Origin: a virus
Lineage: Duplodnaviria; Heunggongvirae; Uroviricota; Caudoviricetes
Direction: 5' to 3' (one strand)
DNA length: 46,051 nt
IMG/VR virus record: IMGVR_UViG_3300010275_000216
Below the pieces are notes generated by a model. The model was not told the DNA's origin and made no database searches. It saw only the letters and a list, made by a program, of their open reading frames with translations. Position numbers and translations under genes: made by a program. Positions 2,148-41,776 of the stretch are shown here, piece after piece (positions within the stretch are counted from its first letter, which is position 1; the number at the start of each line of letters is the position of its first letter).

Positions 2148-2723
2148 CTACGGTAGGGCTGGCCATTCAATATCCGGTGCAGTTGATGTATCAACACGGT
2201 TCAGCAACACCCGATACTTTTTCCAGGCTTCCAGCAACAAGGTTTCTTTCTCCGTTGCGATCTCCAGATCCACAGCATCCTGAAGCGGCGCTATATGCTC
2301 ACTGGCTACCTGCATCAGGCTGTTTTTTGTTTCTTCCGCCTCCCGGATCCGGAACAGTTTTTCTGCTTCCGTATCCTTCACCCAGGCTGTGCCGTTCCAC
2401 TTCTGAAACTCCCCTTCCGGGGATAACCAGGTGACATTTTCCGGTAATGAGCCGAGTTCAGAAATAAATAACGCGTCGCCGGAAGCCACGTCATAGACCG
2501 TTTTTCCCCGATGGTCTTCAACGAGATGCCACGATGCCTCATCACTGTTGAAAACAGCCACAAAGCCAGCCGGAATATCTGGCGGTGCAATATCGGTACT
2601 GTTTGCAGGCAGACCTGTATGAGGCGGAATATATGCGTCACCTTCACCAATAAATTCATTAGTTCCGGCCAGCAGGTTATAAATTTTTATGGTCCGTGCT
2701 TGTTCACTCATTCTGAATGCCAT
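2148..2723 (-). CDS. tfa: tail fibre assembly protein Tfa
   Basis: N-terminus [38 protein letters not shown] matches my recollection of lambda Tfa along most of its length; start overlaps stf stop. Confidence 0.9.
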
Positions 2724-26985: not shown

Positions 26986-27192
26986 CTTCATTTTCACTTT
27001 TTTAAATCCAACGACAGACGGCTGGCATTTAAGTATTGTGAAATATTATCAAATGTAATCATCATTGATTTACAAAAGATACATTTTGCCCCGAAAGGAT
27101 TCATGTCAGAAACATCAAAAGATGATGTTCTATACTGGGAACCATGACAACACGGGCATCTAAAGTGAATATGGTTTGTAATATTGTCTACC

Positions 27193-27405
27193 TCAAAGCG
27201 CCACTACATGAACAGCGGCAGGACCTTTAGGTCCGTTCTCAATACCAAATTCAACTTCCTGATTCTCAGTTAATGTTTTGAAATCGTTGCTCTGAATTGC
27301 TGAGAAATGGACAAACACATCTTTGCTGCCATCTTTCGGCGTGATGAAACCAAAACCTTTTTCAGGGTTAAACCATTTCACTAAACCAGTCATTTTGTTA
27401 GACAT
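27193..27405 (-). CDS. cspI: cold shock protein, CspA family (70 aa), CspI-like
   Basis: [23 protein letters not shown]...[12 protein letters not shown] motifs; long upstream leader as in cold-shock genes. Confidence 0.8.
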
Positions 27406-27765
27406 AATTATTACCTTTTGAAGAAATTAGCCCTTGGGCAGAATGGTCCGAAAAAAAATATCAGAGAGAAAAACCAACAAGGAAATCCCAAGAGGTACAA
27501 ATAATAAAATTATAACAATGACTGCTTCAGATAAATTTGTAACAAACCAGAACACCATTAACGCATGATTAACCACCCATAGCAAGGATTACTTTTGTAA
27601 AGAAAAATACAGCAATGAAAGAATAGCTTTATTTATTAATAAAACGTGTCATTCTGATTAAGACCTTTTCTTACCCTTAAGATTTCAGGAATTTTGGCTC
27701 ATGGAAGAGTCCTTTTTATTTAAATTTTACATTCCGCGATGTAAATGTTCCGATTTAATATTACC

Positions 27766-29791: not shown

Positions 29792-30074
29792 TTGAGATTG
29801 TGGTGCTTTTTGTGGGAGTCATCCACTTACGCACTTTGTTTTGCGATGCCAGCAGTTAGCTTCTGCTGTGAAACTATTCATGCAGCAAACCTGCACTTCA
29901 CCACAATGGTTAGCATACTTTTCCTGATTAAGATTTTGCCAAATATGCTGGCCATTGTTTCATGTATTGGACCTCCTTACTTTTTATTAAAGAGATCCAA
30001 TATTCACTACTCTGTCCGTATCTCTACTCAGGCATCAGCCTTCTTCGTTATCGTATACAGACGAGCGATGAATT

Positions 30075-30290
30075 TTAATCAGTAATGATGACATTTACTG
30101 CTGCAGGACCTTTAGCACCACTCTCTATAGAGAAGGTAACCTTTTGACCTTCAAATAAGGTTCGATAATTATCATTCTGAATCGCAGAAAAATGCACAAA
30201 CACATCTTTACTACCATCAACAGGAGAAATAAAGCCGAAACCTTTATCAGCGTTAAACCATTTTACTAAACCAGTCATTTTATTTGACAT
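30075..30290 (-). CDS. cspB: cold shock protein CspB-like (71 aa)
   Basis: [23 protein letters not shown]...; divergent from cspF as in Qin. Confidence 0.8.
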
Positions 30291-30590
30291 TCTACATTCC
30301 TTAACTTGAGCCTTTCGGCATAAATGGTTTGCATAACAGAAACGACTTCGTACTTAATTGGAGAGACTCAAAGAAGGAATAAGTGAATAACACCTGAAAT
30401 GAGAACTGCTTTAGTAAACTACTTCGTATATCGTCTGTTCTTCAAACCGACGCAATCATTAACGCATAGTTGAACATATGAAGCAATGTTTATTTTAGAC
30501 ATCCAGCCATCTTCAACCCCATCAAAAAACTATAGCTTTCTTCAGGAACGTGTGTATAGTGCGCCAAGTTATCAGTATTAAGGAATTTTT

Positions 30591-35080: not shown

Positions 35081-35332
35081 TTATTCTTCTGCAAAAGCTG
35101 AAAAGCCTGCTTTTATTCCGATCTCTTTCAGTGCCTGTAATGAAGTGACAAACTCACCTTCGCGCAAGATAAATCCGTCTGTCACTCGACCATCCACAAA
35201 ATTAATTAACGCAGCCCCATTCTTTCGCAAACACATAATGCGGTAATGACTAACAAGATTTCCATTTTCAACGCACACAGCATAGAGGCCATCTTCACAA
35301 AAAATTTTACGCAGTTCTTCGATGTTCATCAT
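35081..35332 (-). CDS. hypothetical protein (83 aa), Rem-like by length and position
   Basis: ATGATG start with GGAAGGA SD; located between hok and ydfU where rem lies in Qin. Confidence 0.4.
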   Translation of the reverse strand: MMNIEELRKIFCEDGLYAVCVENGNLVSHYRIMCLRKNGAALINFVDGRVTDGFILREGEFVTSLQALKEIGIKAGFSAFAEE

Positions 35333-35548: not shown

Positions 35549-35704
35549 TTACTCCTCAGGTTCGTAAGCTGTGAAGACAGCGACCTCCGTCTGGCCGGTT
35601 CGGATTCGTACCTCGCAGAGGTCTTTCCTCGTTACCAGTGCCGTCACTATGACGGTTAAACAAATGACGATCAGGGCGATTAACATCGCCTTTTGCTGCT
35701 TCAT
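35549..35704 (-). CDS. hokD: Hok-family type I toxin (51 aa), HokD/RelF-like
   Basis: MKQQKAMLIALIVICLTVIVTALVTRKDLCEVRIRTGQTEVAVFTAYEPEE; AGGAG SD. Confidence 0.85.
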   Translation of the reverse strand: MKQQKAMLIALIVICLTVIVTALVTRKDLCEVRIRTGQTEVAVFTAYEPEE

Positions 35705-35900
35705 AGCCTGCTTCTCCTTGCCTTTCGGCACGTAAGAGGCTAACCTACATGTGTCTAGCATGAAATTGGCCTCAGATTAATGTTAAGCGTCTTGCAGGAC
35801 GCGTAATGTTAACTGGGGCTTTTCTCTATCTGCCGTTGGTGTTCATGCCCGAGGCAGATAGCCTCAAGCACCCGCAGCCATTCTACTTAACTACCGTTAC
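35705..35900. promoter_or_regulatory. hok leader region: in-frame 19-codon upstream extension (mok-like) and candidate antisense Sok-type RNA on plus strand
   Basis: ORF-track 70-aa form starts at ATG 35761; plus-strand promoter-like TTGCCT-17-TAACCT at about 35717-35745 oriented antisense to hok; inference only. Confidence 0.3.
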
Positions 35901-38697: not shown

Positions 38698-39199
38698 AAT
38701 TCCATCCAGCTTTTTGTTGGTATTGCTGTCGATACGCAAGTTTGAAAGCAATTGCTTTTTCTATAAGTTCGTCAGTTTCACGATCCACTACGGCAGGATC
38801 AGCAAAAAGCAGTCCGGACTCCACCACATCGCCATATTCTTTGTTTAACCCGGCGATCATGTACGTGATGCTTTTTCCGTCACTAATTTCACGATACAAC
38901 CTGAAATCATTAATCCGGATAGCCTCCATAATTGCAGGCACTAGCGCCGTGAACTTTTCACGCTTATCCCTGGTGTCGATAGCCTTCCAGCGTTCGAATA
39001 TCTTCACTCGATTAACGCCAAGCGCTCGCTGATCAACCGCGCCACCTTCATCTGTGACACGCTGAACATCGATGTTCGGGCGCTCTTTCAAAGCCCAGAA
39101 TGCTTCAGTGATTAATATCGTCGCCTGCTCCTGTGTCATTCCTGGTCGACATATCCAGGCATCCAGAGCCTCACGAGCCTGTTCAGGAGTGATTTTCAT
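38678..39199 (-). CDS. early regulatory protein (173 aa), YdaT/cII-position
   Basis: Immediately follows cro-like gene with overlap; family assignment uncertain. Confidence 0.4.
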   Translation of the reverse strand: MKITPEQAREALDAWICRPGMTQEQATILITEAFWALKERPNIDVQRVTDEGGAVDQRALGVNRVKIFERWKAIDTRDKREKFTALVPAIMEAIRINDFRLYREISDGKSITYMIAGLNKEYGDVVESGLLFADPAVVDRETDELIEKAIAFKLAYRQQYQQKAGWNYEPSFC

Positions 39200-39410
39200 T
39201 GTTCAACCGCCCCGCCCGCTTCGTCTTACGATATTCGTCATAAACCTTGGGATCATACTGAAGCTCGCCGCCAGATGCCTCCTGTAGACGCATCGCGCGA
39301 CCTTCAGGAACCAGCTCTTGCCATTGAGAAACAGCAGATGGGTCAACGCCAGCAGCTTTCGCTACTTTGGCTTTCGTACCGTAAAAATTAATTACGTCTG
39401 ATTTAAACAT
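39183..39410 (-). CDS. dicC: Cro-like HTH regulator, DicC/YdaS family (75 aa)
   Basis: FYGTKAKVAKAAGVDPSAVSQW...SGGELQYDPKVY HTH; ATG 39410 with GGAGGTG SD; divergent from dicA-like repressor. Confidence 0.7.
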   Translation of the reverse strand: MFKSDVINFYGTKAKVAKAAGVDPSAVSQWQELVPEGRAMRLQEASGGELQYDPKVYDEYRKTKRAGRLNNENHS

Positions 39411-39419
39411 CGCACCTCC

Positions 39420-39440
39420 AATATTGAGTTTTCTCAATAC
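39420..39440. promoter_or_regulatory. operator-like inverted repeat TATTGAG-TTTT-CTCAATA in the dicC-dicA intergenic region
   Basis: Perfect 7-bp inverted repeat between divergent repressor and cro-like genes. Confidence 0.55.
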
Positions 39441-39487: not shown

Positions 39488-39895
39488 ATGAACGAGAAAA
39501 CTTTAGGTCAACGCATTAGAGAAAGACGTAAGCAGGTAGGCTTAAGTCAAAACGGTTTAAGCAAAGCTGCTGGCGTATCTGGCTCATCAATTTCATTATG
39601 GGAAAGTGACCATACAGCCCCGCGCGGGCAAAATTTGCATCGCCTCGCCGAGGTATTACAATGTTCACCAACCTGGATACTGTTTGGCGACGAGGACAAA
39701 ACACCAGCTCCCCCTGTTTCACTCGATAGTGCCTTAGACTTATCGGAAGATGAGTTAGAGATGCTGCGTTTGTATCGTGCACTTCCTAAATCAGAGCAAC
39801 AAGCACAACTCAGCGAACTCCGCGCCCGCGTTGAGAATTTTAATCGCCTGTTCACCGAGCTATTAGAGGCTCGCAAACGCAACAAGCATCAATAA
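39488..39895 (+). CDS. dicA: prophage repressor DicA (XRE-family HTH, 135 aa)
   Basis: 135 aa; ...QVGLSQNGLSKAAGVSGSSISLWE... HTH and ...LQCSPTWILFGDEDK... segment as DicA. Confidence 0.85.
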   Translation: MNEKTLGQRIRERRKQVGLSQNGLSKAAGVSGSSISLWESDHTAPRGQNLHRLAEVLQCSPTWILFGDEDKTPAPPVSLDSALDLSEDELEMLRLYRALPKSEQQAQLSELRARVENFNRLFTELLEARKRNKHQ

Positions 39896-39956
39896 TCATC
39901 CCTTCACAAAATTTTAAAGCCTTACATTTCAATGTATTGGCTTTATCTTGCGTCAA

Positions 39957-39973
39957 TACTTGAGTTTTCTCAT
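39957..39973. promoter_or_regulatory. second copy of the operator core TTGAGTTTTCTCA, upstream of ydfA; partial inverted copy TGAGAAAACT at about 39997-40006
   Basis: 13-mer identical to the core of the 39420-39440 site. Confidence 0.45.
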
Positions 39974-40087
39974 CAAAAAACCTTGACGAAAAATAATGAG
40001 AAAACTAAATTACCTCCATCAAGACACCGCACGGTGTTCTCAGCAAACAGTTCCGCTACCCCGGCGTTAAGGGGAAATGAGGTCAGC

Positions 40088-40243
40088 ATGGATACTATCG
40101 ATCTTGGCAACAACGAATCTCTGGTATGTGGCGTGTTCCCCAACCAGGACGGCACGTTCACCGCGATGACGTATACCAAAAGCAAAACGTTTAAAACCGA
40201 AAATGGTGCCCGTCGCTGGCTGGAAAGAAACTCAGGTGAGTGA
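40088..40243 (+). CDS. ydfA: YdfA-like small protein (51 aa)
   Basis: MDTIDLGNNESLVCGVFPNQDGTFTAMTYTKSKTFKTENGARRWLERNSGE; ATG with GAGG SD. Confidence 0.7.
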   Translation: MDTIDLGNNESLVCGVFPNQDGTFTAMTYTKSKTFKTENGARRWLERNSGE

Positions 40244-40244
40244 T

Positions 40245-40820
40245 ATGGATTTCGACACAATCATGGAAAAGGCTTACGAAGAATACTTCGAAGGCCTTGC
40301 CGAAGGCGAAGAAGCTCTCAGCTTCAGTGAGTTTAAACAGGCACTCAGAATAAGAATGTGCTCTCACAATGACGCAGAGCACAAATATGAGAAGCAAAAT
40401 CAGACCGCAGAAAATTTTGTTCTGGAACCCGGAGAAACGCTTTTCAAAATTCCCGTTACGTGCCCCATTTGCGGTTTTACATCAGAAGAACTTGACGACT
40501 CCTGTAACAATCAGGAAACAACCAAGTATGTCGAAGATGATACCGAGTGCGCACGAAGAACGATTATATCCACGAGTCCAAACTCCAGGACCAATAAATC
40601 TCACTTTGAGAGGGTGATTAATCCACTCCCCCAAACCAATAAAAAAGATGCCGGAGGACAAAAAACCCAATGGAACAACGGGATATCTGTCAAAAAAAGA
40701 CGTTCCATTAAAGACAAACAACGCAGCGCCAACAACTGTAAGCGCTTTATTCCAGTAATCAATTTTCATGTTCTTAAGCGGATTTATTGGTGGTTGCGAC
40801 ATTGCTTAATGAATCCTTAA
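40245..40820 (+). CDS. YdfB/YdfC-region protein as a single 191-aa ORF
   Basis: Starts MDFDTIMEKAYEEYFEGLAEGEE (ydfB-like) and continues uninterrupted; contains CPICGF. Confidence 0.5.
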   Translation: MDFDTIMEKAYEEYFEGLAEGEEALSFSEFKQALRIRMCSHNDAEHKYEKQNQTAENFVLEPGETLFKIPVTCPICGFTSEELDDSCNNQETTKYVEDDTECARRTIISTSPNSRTNKSHFERVINPLPQTNKKDAGGQKTQWNNGISVKKRRSIKDKQRSANNCKRFIPVINFHVLKRIYWWLRHCLMNP

Positions 40821-41079
40821 AACTGTGGTGATTTTAAGGATACCACCTCGCCTGACGTGGTTAAAAGCAGGCACACAACACGAAAGCGCACGGCGAAGTT
40901 CGTCTCACTGTACGGTGTCGTTAAATTTAATTCGACCGTGCGCTTCCGGTTGTGGCAACCCGCGAAATGGCGCGGCGGTAAGTATGGCGGGGTTATTCCT
41001 TCCCCGTAGAGGACACCGAGTTGTCAGGTTGACCATACGCTTAAGTGACAACCCCGCTGCAACGCCCTCTGTTATCAAT

Positions 41080-41137
41080 TTTCTGGTGACGTTTGGCGGT
41101 ATCAGTTTTACTCCGTGACTGCTCTGCCGCCGTTTTT
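41080..41137 (+). ncRNA. dicF: DicF small RNA (ftsZ-targeting sRNA of the dicB operon) with terminator U-tract
   Basis: TTTCTGGTGACGTTTGGCGGTATCAGTTTTACTCCGTGACTGCTCTGCCGCCGTTTTT matches the DicF sequence as I recall it over 52 of 53 nt; correct operon position between ydfBC and dicB. Confidence 0.8.
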
Positions 41138-41306
41138 AAAGTGAGTTTTGTGATGCGGTGAATGCGGCTAAGCGCACGCGGAACAGTTAAAACCAAAAAC
41201 AGTGTTATGGGTGGATTCTCTGTATCCGGCGTTAATTGTTAACTGGTTAACGTCACCTGGAGGCACCAGGCACTGCATCACAAAATTCATTGTTGAGGAC
41301 GCGATA

Positions 41307-41495
41307 ATGAAAACGTTATTACCAAACGTTAATACGTCTGAAGGTTGTTTTGAAATTGGTGTCACTATCAGTAACCCTGTATTTACTGAAGATGCCATTA
41401 ACAAGAGAAAACAAGAACGGGAGCTATTAAATAAAATATGCATTGTTTCAATGCTGGCTCGTTTACGTCTGATGCCAAAAGGATGTGCACAATGA
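41307..41495 (+). CDS. dicB: cell division inhibitor DicB (62 aa)
   Basis: MKTLLPNVNTSEGCFEIGVTISNPVFTEDAINKRKQERELLNKICIVSMLARLRLMPKGCAQ. Confidence 0.85.
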   Translation: MKTLLPNVNTSEGCFEIGVTISNPVFTEDAINKRKQERELLNKICIVSMLARLRLMPKGCAQ

Positions 41496-41683
41496 ATTCA
41501 GCATTTGCGCTTGTTCTGACAGTTTTTCTTGTTTCCGGAGAGCCAGTTGATATTGCAGTCAGTGTTCACAGGACAATGCAGGAGTGTATGACTGCAGCAA
41601 CCGAACAGAAAATTCCCGGTAACTGTTACCCGGTCGATAAAGTTATTCACCAGGATAATATCGAAATCCCGGCAGGTCTTTAA
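41492..41683 (+). CDS. ydfD: YdfD-like small membrane/lysis protein (63 aa)
   Basis: MNSAFALVLTVFLVSGEPVDIAVSVHRTMQECMTAATEQKIPGNCYPVDKVIHQDNIEIPAGL; start overlaps dicB stop. Confidence 0.75.
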   Translation: MNSAFALVLTVFLVSGEPVDIAVSVHRTMQECMTAATEQKIPGNCYPVDKVIHQDNIEIPAGL

Positions 41684-41776
41684 AACAGTTCCGTAATAAA
41701 TATCCGGTTTCATTCTTATATGCCAGCAATAGCAGGGATTTGTTCATCCTTAAATCTGTCATGAGGTTAAAACAAA

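What the first reader, a model, noticed from the sequence alone, without database searches (positions are those of the whole stretch)
39932..41700. Complete dicB operon with DicF sRNA under a DicA/DicC-type switch
The DicF sequence is recognisable almost nucleotide for nucleotide, flanked by ydfA, a fused ydfB/C-like ORF, dicB and ydfD. DicB and DicF inhibit cell division and have been reported to protect against some phages by affecting inner-membrane receptor proteins. The ydfB/C region is one continuous 191-aa ORF here, which is worth comparing with the split annotation in the reference prophage.
Basis: partly seen in the sequence, partly recalled or inferred. Interest (0 to 1): 0.45.

Follow-up and report, generated by a model that had tools for sequence, protein, structure and literature searches.

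The report
dicBF operon hiding an antisense gene
This is an intact copy of the well-known prophage dicBF cell-division-inhibitor operon (DicF RNA 52/53 identical to K-12). The supposed 'fused ydfB/ydfC' reading frame is the first 34 codons of ydfB joined to a cassette that replaced ydfC, and that cassette carries an unannotated, conserved small membrane-protein gene on the opposite strand.

Summary
The operon call is right and already known. DicF lies at 41080-41132 (Rfam 72.5 bits; 52/53 nt identical to K-12; the one change is the last base). ydfA, dicB and ydfD are 98-100% identical to Qin. DicA- and DicC-family regulators lie upstream, with their own operator sequence (a different immunity type).

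The 'ydfB/C fusion' reading is wrong. Homology to K-12 stops after ydfB codon 34 (40346) and resumes near 40880-40930. YdfC is absent. The ~540-nt replacement occurs in 806 of 5,426 complete E. coli genomes, and RefSeq leaves it unannotated.

On the minus strand it holds a 106-aa gene (40482-40802). The protein has three membrane helices (AlphaFold pLDDT 92.8), dN/dS of 0.09-0.20, and at least 156 family clusters, often in prophage immunity regions. It has no Pfam, NCBIfam or PADLOC match. It sits where other alleles of this slot, and phage lambda, carry sieB, also antisense to the early-left operon.

The 191-aa plus ORF is its codon-aligned antisense frame. Its product is predicted disordered, and dN/dS is about 1 inside the overlap. 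Even so, it has no stop codon in seven lineages, and it has a conserved N-terminal peptide (IP..CPxCGF) just outside the overlap. It may therefore be a genuine antisense overlapping gene.

The parts
39183..39410 (-). dicC-like (Cro-type) regulator, 75 aa
   Evidence: NCBIfam NF007282 DicC 167.6 bits, cutoff 130. Pfam P22_Cro. 54/76 identical to K-12 DicC; the C-terminal 45 aa are identical and the HTH part diverges.
39488..39895 (+). dicA-like repressor, 135 aa, different immunity type from K-12
   Evidence: NCBIfam NF007257 DicA 239.4 bits, cutoff 101. Pfam HTH_3. 73/127 identical to K-12 DicA.
39424..39436 (.). operator copy TTGAGTTTTCTCA in the dicA/dicC intergenic region
   Evidence: Exact 13-nt repeat with 39960-39972, and inverted copy at 39996-40012. 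This sequence differs from the K-12 region.
39957..40012 (+). dicB-operon promoter (TTGACG-17-TAAATT, 39983-40011) bracketed by two operator copies
   Evidence: Promoter scan. Repeats D2 and I2. Homology to the K-12 leader begins just downstream, near 40023.
40088..40243 (+). ydfA (DUF1391)
   Evidence: PF07151, E 2.6e-29. 50/51 identical to K-12.
40245..40346 (+). ydfB remnant, first 34 of 42 codons
   Evidence: 34/34 identical to K-12 YdfB, then homology ends. PGAP annotates the same 102 nt as a ydfB pseudogene missing its C-terminus.
40346..40890 (.). replacement cassette occupying the ydfB-3'/ydfC slot
   Evidence: No alignment to Qin. Window 40340-40840 is present at 99% identity or more in 783 genomes and matches in 806 of 5,426 complete E. 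coli genomes. It is also in Escherichia phage HannyBb.
40245..40820 (+). 191-codon plus ORF: ydfB codons 1-34 fused in frame to the cassette's own ORF (internal ATG at 40356). From 40482 it is the codon-aligned antisense frame of the minus-strand gene.
   Evidence: ORF list. Matches phrog_35040. No stop across the antisense gene in 7 lineages. dN/dS 0.5-1.5 in the overlap. AlphaFold pLDDT 43.8.
40431..40481 (+). conserved peptide core of the plus ORF (GE..F.IP..CPxCGF), outside the overlap
   Evidence: Across 5 lineages, substitutions by plus-frame codon position are 49/48/95. The Pro codon appears as CCC, CCG, CCT and CCA. pN/pS is 0.38 in this frame, the lowest of the six frames.
40482..40802 (-). 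106-aa three-helix membrane protein gene, unannotated in RefSeq
   Evidence: Full-length homologues at 38-57% identity. 156 clusters at E<=1e-3. dN/dS 0.09-0.20. AlphaFold pLDDT 92.8 with helices 17-32, 42-62 and 85-105 plus a beta hairpin. Lies next to and convergent with the repressor gene in other prophages.
40837..40873 (.). conserved element with two interleaved inverted repeats (CCAC/GTGG and GCCTG/CAGGC). On the minus strand it reads TTAACC-16-TGgTATCCT, a possible promoter of the 106-aa gene.
   Evidence: Conserved upstream of the gene in all enterobacterial lineages. Also in more than 100 lambdoid contigs without the gene. No Rfam match.
40932..41079 (+). DicF precursor region, nearly identical to K-12
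   Evidence: Alignment. [quoted passage not shown]
41080..41132 (+). DicF sRNA with terminator stem and T-run
   Evidence: Rfam 72.5 bits. 52/53 identical to K-12.
41307..41495 (+). dicB
   Evidence: PF05358, E 1.9e-40. NF049927 132.8 bits, cutoff 100. 62/62 identical to K-12.
41492..41683 (+). ydfD (DUF1482)
   Evidence: PF07358, E 2.1e-26. 62/63 identical to K-12.

Best explanation
The region is the early-left (PL-type) operon of a Qin-like lambdoid prophage that looks complete (tail, head, lysis, Q and integrase genes are all in the window). Shown: a DicA-family repressor and a DicC-family Cro-type protein, with their own operator sequence, flank a promoter at 39983-40011. That promoter reads through ydfA, a ydfB remnant, a ~540-nt cassette, the DicF precursor, dicB and ydfD. 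DicF and DicB are essentially identical to K-12. From K-12 work they should therefore block FtsZ synthesis and ring placement and inhibit ManYZ once the repressor is lifted. Because K-12 DicF is processed from the dicBp transcript, with no internal promoter, DicF here depends on transcription crossing the cassette (inferred). Shown: the '191-aa ydfB/C ORF' is a chimera of 34 ydfB codons joined in frame to the cassette. Shown: the cassette's well-supported gene is on the minus strand, a 106-aa three-helix membrane protein under strong purifying selection. It belongs to a widespread unnamed family that sits beside prophage repressor genes. Inferred: it is transcribed towards the repressor gene, against the repressed early operon, and so is expressed in the lysogen. 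This is the arrangement of sieB in lambda and in another allele of this same slot. I therefore think its most likely role is a prophage-expressed membrane function such as superinfection exclusion or abortive infection, shut off by convergent transcription on induction. Partly shown: the plus-strand ORF is translated. Its first ~35 cassette-encoded residues are conserved at the protein level, and stop codons have been excluded from the 107 antisense codons. Its sequence inside the overlap is not otherwise constrained.
For: Operon identity. Operators and promoter. Prophage context collinear with a Qin-locus prophage (integrase, excisionase, terminase, portal). DicF processed from the dicBp transcript only: PMC10448788. 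Cassette boundaries and frequency. Minus gene: homologues and alignment. Differences by codon position pile up at minus-frame position 3, for example 26/18/51. dN/dS is 0.09-0.20 against 0.5-1.5 for the plus frame. Two close pairs (L003/L005, L006/L008) differ only by changes synonymous in the minus frame; a third, L006/L009, also has one first-position difference, yet all three encode identical proteins. Structure pLDDT 92.8. Position next to and convergent with cI-like repressors in Yersinia, Escherichia and metagenomic prophages. Family relatives outside the enterobacteria lack any antisense ORF, so the minus-strand protein stands on its own. Positional analogy: sieB (PF14163) lies on the minus strand of the same slot in strain FDAARGOS_1283, and lambda sieB lies antisense within the PL operon. 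Plus ORF: zero stops in 7 lineages, although minus-frame synonymous sites are saturated between clades (pS 0.68-0.83). The probability of no antisense stop in all three saturated lineages is about 0.003 with the prophage's own codon usage and about 1e-10 with the usage of AT-rich family relatives. Those relatives carry 5-17 antisense stops. Conserved N-terminal peptide with synonymous wobble changes. Shine-Dalgarno plus ATG in three independent contexts.
Against: No expression data for either strand were available. The minus-gene promoter is only a conserved TTAACC-16-TGgTATCCT match that the consensus scan did not call. The same element occurs in many phages lacking the gene. The exclusion function rests on position alone: there is no similarity to SieB (hhalign probability 0.3%), no PADLOC hit, and fold searches were uninformative. 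Against the plus ORF being functional: dN/dS is about 1 in the overlap; AlphaFold gives pLDDT 43.8; one lineage (L119) has TGA in place of the Gly of CPVCGF; frameshifted versions exist in databases; 36 polymorphic sites among 25 near-identical haplotypes show no bias; and no independent family was found for the N-terminal peptide.
Confidence: 0.75

Rival explanations
1. One reading: the 191-aa plus ORF is one real protein formed by fusion of YdfB and YdfC, and the minus-strand ORF is a chance shadow.
For: The ORF is continuous. It is called as a 205- or 191-aa hypothetical protein in many records and forms phrog_35040. In lineage L117 the frame runs on into a real ydfC, giving 271 aa.
Against: No YdfC similarity in the window ORF. 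Substitutions in the overlap fit the minus frame: dN/dS 0.09-0.20 against 0.5-1.5. The minus protein has about 150 distant full-length relatives whose antisense frames are full of stops. It folds at pLDDT 92.8, while the plus product gives 43.8.
Confidence: 0.03
2. Only the minus-strand gene is real. The plus ORF is a non-functional shadow that stays open because the codon-aligned antisense frame only needs TTA, CTA and TCA codons to be absent, and the upstream 'peptide' conservation reflects a nucleotide-level signal such as the 3' end of the minus-strand mRNA.
For: dN/dS about 1 and predicted disorder. Nonsense and frameshift variants exist. With the prophage's codon usage each lineage has a 12-17% chance of no antisense stop. 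High-GC relatives also have open antisense frames.
Against: All three synonymously saturated clades, and all seven lineages, lack stops. The joint probability is 0.003 or less. These genes use almost no CTG, so TTA would be expected. In the 17 codons outside the overlap, pN/pS is lowest in the plus frame (0.38), and the four Pro codons interchange. That stretch shows no stable RNA fold (z +1.86). Independent Shine-Dalgarno plus ATG starts lie 28-30 codons upstream of CPxCGF in three contexts.
Confidence: 0.3
3. The plus frame is kept open only so that ribosomes follow RNA polymerase through the antisense cassette. This would protect the dicBp transcript from Rho-dependent termination, so that DicF and DicB can be made. 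The peptide itself would have no function.
For: DicF and dicB have no promoter of their own in K-12 (PMC10448788). This operon shows no N or nut system in the window. The overlap sequence is unconstrained apart from stops.
Against: In the allele that carries sieB antisense in the same slot of the same kind of operon, all three plus frames have 6-12 stops. Read-through translation is therefore not a general requirement. This idea does not explain the protein-level conservation of IP..CPxCGF. A long untranslated stretch precedes dicF anyway.
Confidence: 0.15

Closest known systems
dicBF operon of the Qin cryptic prophage, E. coli K-12 (ydfABC-dicF-dicB-ydfD under DicA/DicC)
   Same: Same gene order and leader. 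DicF 52/53, DicB 62/62, YdfD 62/63 and YdfA 50/51 identical. DicA/DicC family regulators with three operator copies. Same chromosomal neighbourhood in near-identical strains (rspB, ynfA).
   Different: The immunity region differs: DicA 57% and DicC 71% identical, with other operators. ydfB is truncated at codon 34 and ydfC is absent, replaced by a ~540-nt cassette with a minus-strand gene. The prophage here looks complete rather than cryptic.
sieB of phage lambda and P22 (superinfection exclusion/abortive infection gene embedded antisense in the early-left operon)
   Same: A membrane protein gene inside the PL-type operon on the opposite strand, close to the repressor, so that it can be expressed while PL is repressed. 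Another E. coli allele of this very slot carries sieB in the same orientation.
   Different: No sequence or profile similarity. 106 aa rather than 156 (L122 allele) to 184 aa (lambda). sieB has no open antisense frame. The function of the 106-aa protein is untested.
olg1/gene 10 of Pseudomonas phage Fc02 (PMC9936078)
   Same: In the lysis-lysogeny region, a lysogen-expressed gene overlaps in antisense a gene of the early lytic operon. Both were reported to exclude superinfecting phages.
   Different: Unrelated phage type (Mu-like) and unrelated sequences. That case has RNA-seq and phenotypes; this one has only comparative evidence.
Antisense overlapping genes reported in E. coli O157:H7 (for example ano and asa; PMC5960689, PMC6294744, PMC9927249)
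   Same: A long ORF embedded antisense to another gene, with its own Shine-Dalgarno sequence (for the papers).
   Different: Those rest mainly on RNA-seq and ribosome profiling in one strain. Here the evidence is stop-codon exclusion across lineages with saturated synonymous sites, plus a conserved non-overlapping N-terminus, with no expression data.

Membership tests
DicF sRNA (Rfam RF00039) | Covariance-model score above the curated gathering threshold | tested here: met
   72.5 bits against 48, full model 1-52, E 3.5e-14.
DicF sRNA (Rfam RF00039) | Both target-pairing regions (5' and 3' parts of the 53-nt RNA) unchanged | tested here: met
   Only nt 53 differs from K-12, C>G, after the terminator stem.
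DicF sRNA (Rfam RF00039) | Lies in the untranslated stretch upstream of dicB, within the transcript from dicBp, with the conserved precursor region | tested here: met
   40932-41306 is nearly identical to K-12.
DicF sRNA (Rfam RF00039) | 53-nt species produced by RNase E cleavage and termination; binds Hfq | not testable with these tools
   Needs a Northern blot or co-immunoprecipitation.
Qin-type dicBF operon | ydfA, dicB and ydfD present and intact | tested here: met
   PF07151, PF05358 with NF049927, and PF07358; 98-100% identical to K-12.
Qin-type dicBF operon | Intact ydfB (42 aa) | tested here: not met
   Only codons 1-34 are present. PGAP calls it a pseudogene.
Qin-type dicBF operon | ydfC (72 aa) present | tested here: not met
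   No similarity at the protein level or the DNA level.
Qin-type dicBF operon | DicA repressor and DicC divergently transcribed upstream, with shared operators at both promoters | tested here: met
   NF007257 at 239 bits and NF007282 at 168 bits. 13-nt operator repeats.
SieB superinfection exclusion protein (PF14163) | Sequence or profile similarity to SieB | tested here: not met
   No Pfam hit for the 106-aa protein. hhalign probability 0.3% against the SieB of L122.
SieB superinfection exclusion protein (PF14163) | Membrane protein gene antisense within the early-left operon near the repressor | tested here: met
   This supports 'placed like sieB', not family membership.
SieB superinfection exclusion protein (PF14163) | Aborts or excludes superinfecting phages | not testable with these tools
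   Needs plaque assays.
Antisense overlapping protein-coding gene pair | Both frames stay open in lineages whose synonymous sites are saturated | tested here: met
   7 of 7 lineages. pS 0.68-0.83 between clades. P 0.003 to 1e-10.
Antisense overlapping protein-coding gene pair | Purifying selection on the amino-acid sequence of both products within the overlap | tested here: not met
   Minus frame dN/dS 0.09-0.20; plus frame 0.5-1.5.
Antisense overlapping protein-coding gene pair | Purifying selection on the plus ORF outside the overlap | tested here: met
   17 codons: pN/pS 0.38, differences by codon position 49/48/95. The stretch is short.
Antisense overlapping protein-coding gene pair | Transcription and translation of both strands | not testable with these tools
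   No RNA-seq, ribosome profiling or proteomic data were accessible.

The most novel reading that the evidence does not exclude
The cassette is a true two-strand coding module that moves among enterobacterial lambdoid prophages. One strand encodes a lysogeny-expressed three-helix membrane protein. The other encodes an early-operon protein whose conserved CPxCGF head is followed by a 107-codon tail read entirely from the antisense of the membrane-protein gene and kept free of stops by selection. The two would be expressed in alternation, lysogen versus induction, and might act together, for example as an exclusion function and its control.
Probability: 0.4. Interest if true: 0.65.

Novelty: new variant of a known kind. 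Interest (0 to 1): 0.42.

Why it matters
The dicBF operon itself adds nothing new. It matches in 4,762 of 5,426 complete E. coli genomes, and dicF-dicB-ydfD occurs in 38 deposited phage genomes.

The value lies in the correction.
- A ~540-nt stretch carried by about 15% of complete E. coli genomes is left blank by RefSeq, or is filled with a mechanical 191- or 205-aa ORF in phage annotations.
- It actually holds a well-folded, widely distributed membrane protein gene of unknown function.
- That gene sits in the classical 'sieB position' of lambdoid prophages. It is therefore a candidate prophage-encoded exclusion or defence factor absent from defence databases.

The locus also offers a cleaner test case for the disputed question of antisense overlapping genes in bacteria:
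- the antisense frame has resisted stop codons in lineages whose synonymous sites are saturated;
- relatives outside the clade, and the sieB allele in the same slot, serve as built-in negative controls;
- an isolated phage with the cassette (HannyBb) is available for experiments.

Tried and rejected
- ydfB-ydfC fusion: rejected, because there is no YdfC similarity.
- Homology to SieB: rejected.
- Independent family for the CPxCGF peptide: a profile search found none. The 38-aa hit P0221 comes from a contig whose fragmented gene calls look error-ridden. Two CPICGF-containing zinc-ribbon proteins scored at chance level.
- Canonical zinc ribbon in the plus ORF: no second conserved Cys/His pair.
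- N-like antiterminator role for the plus ORF: considered because it is the first early-left ORF in several prophages and is predicted disordered. It has no arginine-rich motif and no sequence constraint in most of its length.
- Population-level test on 25 near-identical haplotypes: too few polymorphic sites (36) and no pattern.
- RNA structure for the conserved 40837-40873 element: no Rfam hit, no significant fold, and no covariation among more than 100 instances.
- Intrinsic terminator for the minus gene: only a weak hairpin at about 40346-40395 (z -2.3).
- Rho-shielding as the sole reason for the open frame: weakened by the sieB control.
Full report
**What is at the coordinates**

Rfam places DicF at 41081-41132 on the plus strand, scoring 72.5 bits against a gathering score of 48. 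The 53-nt K-12 sequence aligns at 41080-41132 with a single difference, nt 53 C>G, beyond the terminator stem. Both pairing regions are therefore intact.

The flanking genes and their identity to Qin of K-12 are:
- ydfA (40088-40243): 50/51
- dicB (41307-41495): 62/62
- ydfD (41492-41683): 62/63

Each hits its expected Pfam or NCBIfam model. The ~150 nt upstream of dicF, which form the 190-nt precursor in K-12, are nearly identical too.

Upstream lie a 135-aa protein that scores 239 bits on NCBIfam DicA (cutoff 101) and a divergent 75-aa protein that scores 168 bits on DicC (cutoff 130). They are only 57% and 71% identical to the K-12 proteins, and the differences fall in the DNA-binding parts.

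The 13-nt sequence TTGAGTTTTCTCA occurs once between dicA and dicC. It occurs twice more, once inverted, around a TTGACG-17-TAAATT promoter at 39983-40011. Homology to the K-12 leader starts just downstream of this promoter. This is a DicA/DicC switch of a different immunity type.

The window is collinear with a prophage at the Qin locus of other E. coli strains that retains terminase, portal, capsid, lysis, Q, excisionase and integrase genes. dicF-dicB-ydfD is also present in 38 deposited phage genomes, one of which (Tritos) annotates DicF. All of this is known biology (PMC5069750, PMC6832061, PMC10448788).

**The 'fused ydfB/C' ORF**

A 191-codon ORF does run from 40245 to 40820. Only its first 34 residues are YdfB (34/34). 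The rest has no similarity to YdfC. The DNA alignment with Qin breaks at 40346 and resumes only around 40880-40930.

The intervening segment is common: 806 of 5,426 complete E. coli genomes carry it, 783 of them at 99% identity or more. In RefSeq these loci show ydfB as a truncated pseudogene followed by ~960 nt with no annotated CDS. Phage HannyBb annotates the maximal 205-aa ORF, and PHROGs holds it as phrog_35040.

**The gene on the other strand**

The minus strand has a 106-aa ORF at 40482-40802. It is a real gene, on five grounds.

1. It has full-length homologues at 38-57% identity, including one in Yersinia. An exhaustive search finds 156 clusters at E<=1e-3, nearly all of 100-115 aa. 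A species-level scan finds it in Pseudomonas, Shewanella, Marinobacter, Herminiimonas, Arcobacter, Desulfobacteraceae and others.
2. Relatives outside the enterobacteria with comparable G+C carry 5-17 stop codons in the antisense frame. The family therefore does not depend on the plus ORF.
3. Between enterobacterial lineages, differences concentrate at the third position of the minus frame, for example 26/18/51. dN/dS is 0.09-0.20 in the minus frame and 0.5-1.5 in the plus frame.
4. AlphaFold models it at pLDDT 92.8 as three long helices plus a beta hairpin. The plus ORF product gives pLDDT 43.8.
5. In other prophages the gene lies beside the cI-like repressor gene, convergent with it and opposed to the early-left operon. 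More distant relatives lie next to recombinases, BRO/KilA-N-like genes, primases and repressor-like genes, as judged from ORF translations.

No library names the protein, and fold searches were uninformative.

**How it most likely works**

The position is telling. In strain FDAARGOS_1283 the same slot, after ydfA-ydfB, holds sieB (PF14163) on the minus strand. In lambda, sieB likewise lies antisense inside the PL operon next to N.

A gene so placed can be transcribed in the lysogen, while the early operon is repressed. It is opposed by convergent transcription after induction. I therefore infer that the 106-aa protein is a lysogen-expressed membrane function of the exclusion or abortive-infection kind. 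This inference rests on position only. The protein is not a SieB homologue (hhalign probability 0.3%).

A conserved TTAACC-16-TGgTATCCT sequence and an AAGGA Shine-Dalgarno precede the gene in all enterobacterial lineages. The same ~35-nt element also occurs in many phages that lack the gene, so its role is unsettled.

**The plus ORF is not simply a shadow**

It is the codon-aligned antisense frame, so a stop arises only where the minus gene uses TTA, CTA or TCA. None occurs in any of seven lineages. This holds although minus-frame synonymous sites are saturated between the three main clades (pS 0.68-0.83) and although these genes hardly use CTG.

The probability of no antisense stop in all three saturated lineages depends on the null model:
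- about 0.003 with the prophage's own codon usage;
- about 1e-10 with the usage of AT-rich family relatives.

The 17 codons just outside the overlap encode GE..F.IP..CPxCGF in every lineage. Differences there fall 49/48/95 by plus-frame codon position, and the Pro codon appears as CCC, CCG, CCT and CCA. pN/pS is 0.38, the lowest of the six frames.

In three other contexts the ORF starts 28-30 codons before CPxC, behind a Shine-Dalgarno sequence. In L117 and L118 that sequence is the ydfA ribosome-binding site itself. In several prophages it is the first ORF of the early-left transcript.

Several results point the other way:
- its sequence inside the overlap is unconstrained;
- it is predicted disordered;
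- one lineage has a TGA inside CPVCGF;
- frameshifted copies exist;
- no independent family exists for the peptide.

One possible reason for the open frame is that ribosomes must follow RNA polymerase through the cassette so that DicF and DicB are made. These have no promoter of their own (PMC10448788). The sieB allele weakens this idea, because all three of its plus frames have 6-12 stops.

I put the chance that the plus ORF is a translated, selected gene at roughly 0.4-0.55.

**Comparison and verdict**

The operon is a member of the known dicBF kind, with two defining genes altered: ydfB truncated and ydfC absent. The cassette is, to my knowledge and in the papers searched, undescribed. Its closest analogues are lambda and P22 sieB for placement, and the Fc02 olg1/gene 10 pair for an antisense overlap at a lysis-lysogeny region (PMC9936078).

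Its one 'worth comparing' point is wrong as stated, yet it leads to the only part of the locus that is new.

Noticed in passing
window 40837-40873 (extends to about 40890): A ~35-nt element, GGATACCACCTCGCCTGACGTGGTTAAAAGCAGGC, with two interleaved inverted repeats (CCAC/GTGG and GCCTG/CAGGC, capable of forming a pseudoknot). It occurs in more than 100 IMG/VR lambdoid contigs and in phages mEp460, Evi, PPompW, phiES15 and Kp4866-6, usually just upstream of a gene start in the early-left operon. Only 11 of 116 instances adjoin the 106-aa gene. It has no Rfam match and showed no covariation.
   Followed up: partly
L122 1325-1795 (E. coli FDAARGOS_1283) and L123 1049-1583 (strain EC24): The slot between ydfA/ydfB and dicF/dicB is a variable site. 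One allele carries sieB on the minus strand with kil downstream. Another carries a 121-aa plus ORF overlapping a 66-aa minus ORF. Neither of the latter two has a Pfam match.
   Followed up: partly
L117 1794-2528: In a Rac-like prophage with kilR, the cassette replaces ydfA-ydfB instead of ydfC. Its plus ORF starts at the ydfA ribosome-binding site and runs in frame through the antisense gene into an intact ydfC, giving a 245-aa frame from that start (271 aa as called by the gene predictor).
   Followed up: partly
L119, about 6 nt upstream of the 106-aa gene's stop codon (plus orientation): A natural variant with TGA replacing the Gly codon of CPVCGF. This truncates the plus ORF to 32 aa and leaves the minus gene intact.
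   Followed up: no
window 41130-41339: A sub-threshold but full-length Rfam match to the sRNA family STnc100 (34.1 bits, gathering score 47, E 2.5e-5). It covers the spacer between dicF and dicB and the first codons of dicB.
   Followed up: no
phage records OV696610 (Tritos), PP925841 (HannyBb), PV340562, LR597641 and others: dicF-dicB-ydfD is present in 38 deposited phage genomes. The 2016 DicF paper (PMC5069750) had found no DicB or DicF in the phage databases of that time.
   Followed up: partly
window 2182-2380, 27166-27551, 30028-30451, 35699-35873 (all minus strand): Other Rfam matches in the prophage: IS009, two cspA-type thermoregulator leaders (cold-shock gene copies in the lysis region) and a sok antitoxin RNA of a hok/sok module.
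   Followed up: no
L100, L101, L102 (Arcobacter sp. MAG NZ_CP182343): Three identical copies of a 106-aa family member in one genome, each in the same ~8-kb context beside a cI-like HTH gene. This suggests a multi-copy prophage or transposable phage.
   Followed up: no
window 35081-35332 (approximate, by collinearity with L115): A rem homologue (the antirepressor of K-12 DicA) appears to be present. Whether it acts on this DicA of a different immunity type is unknown.
   Followed up: no
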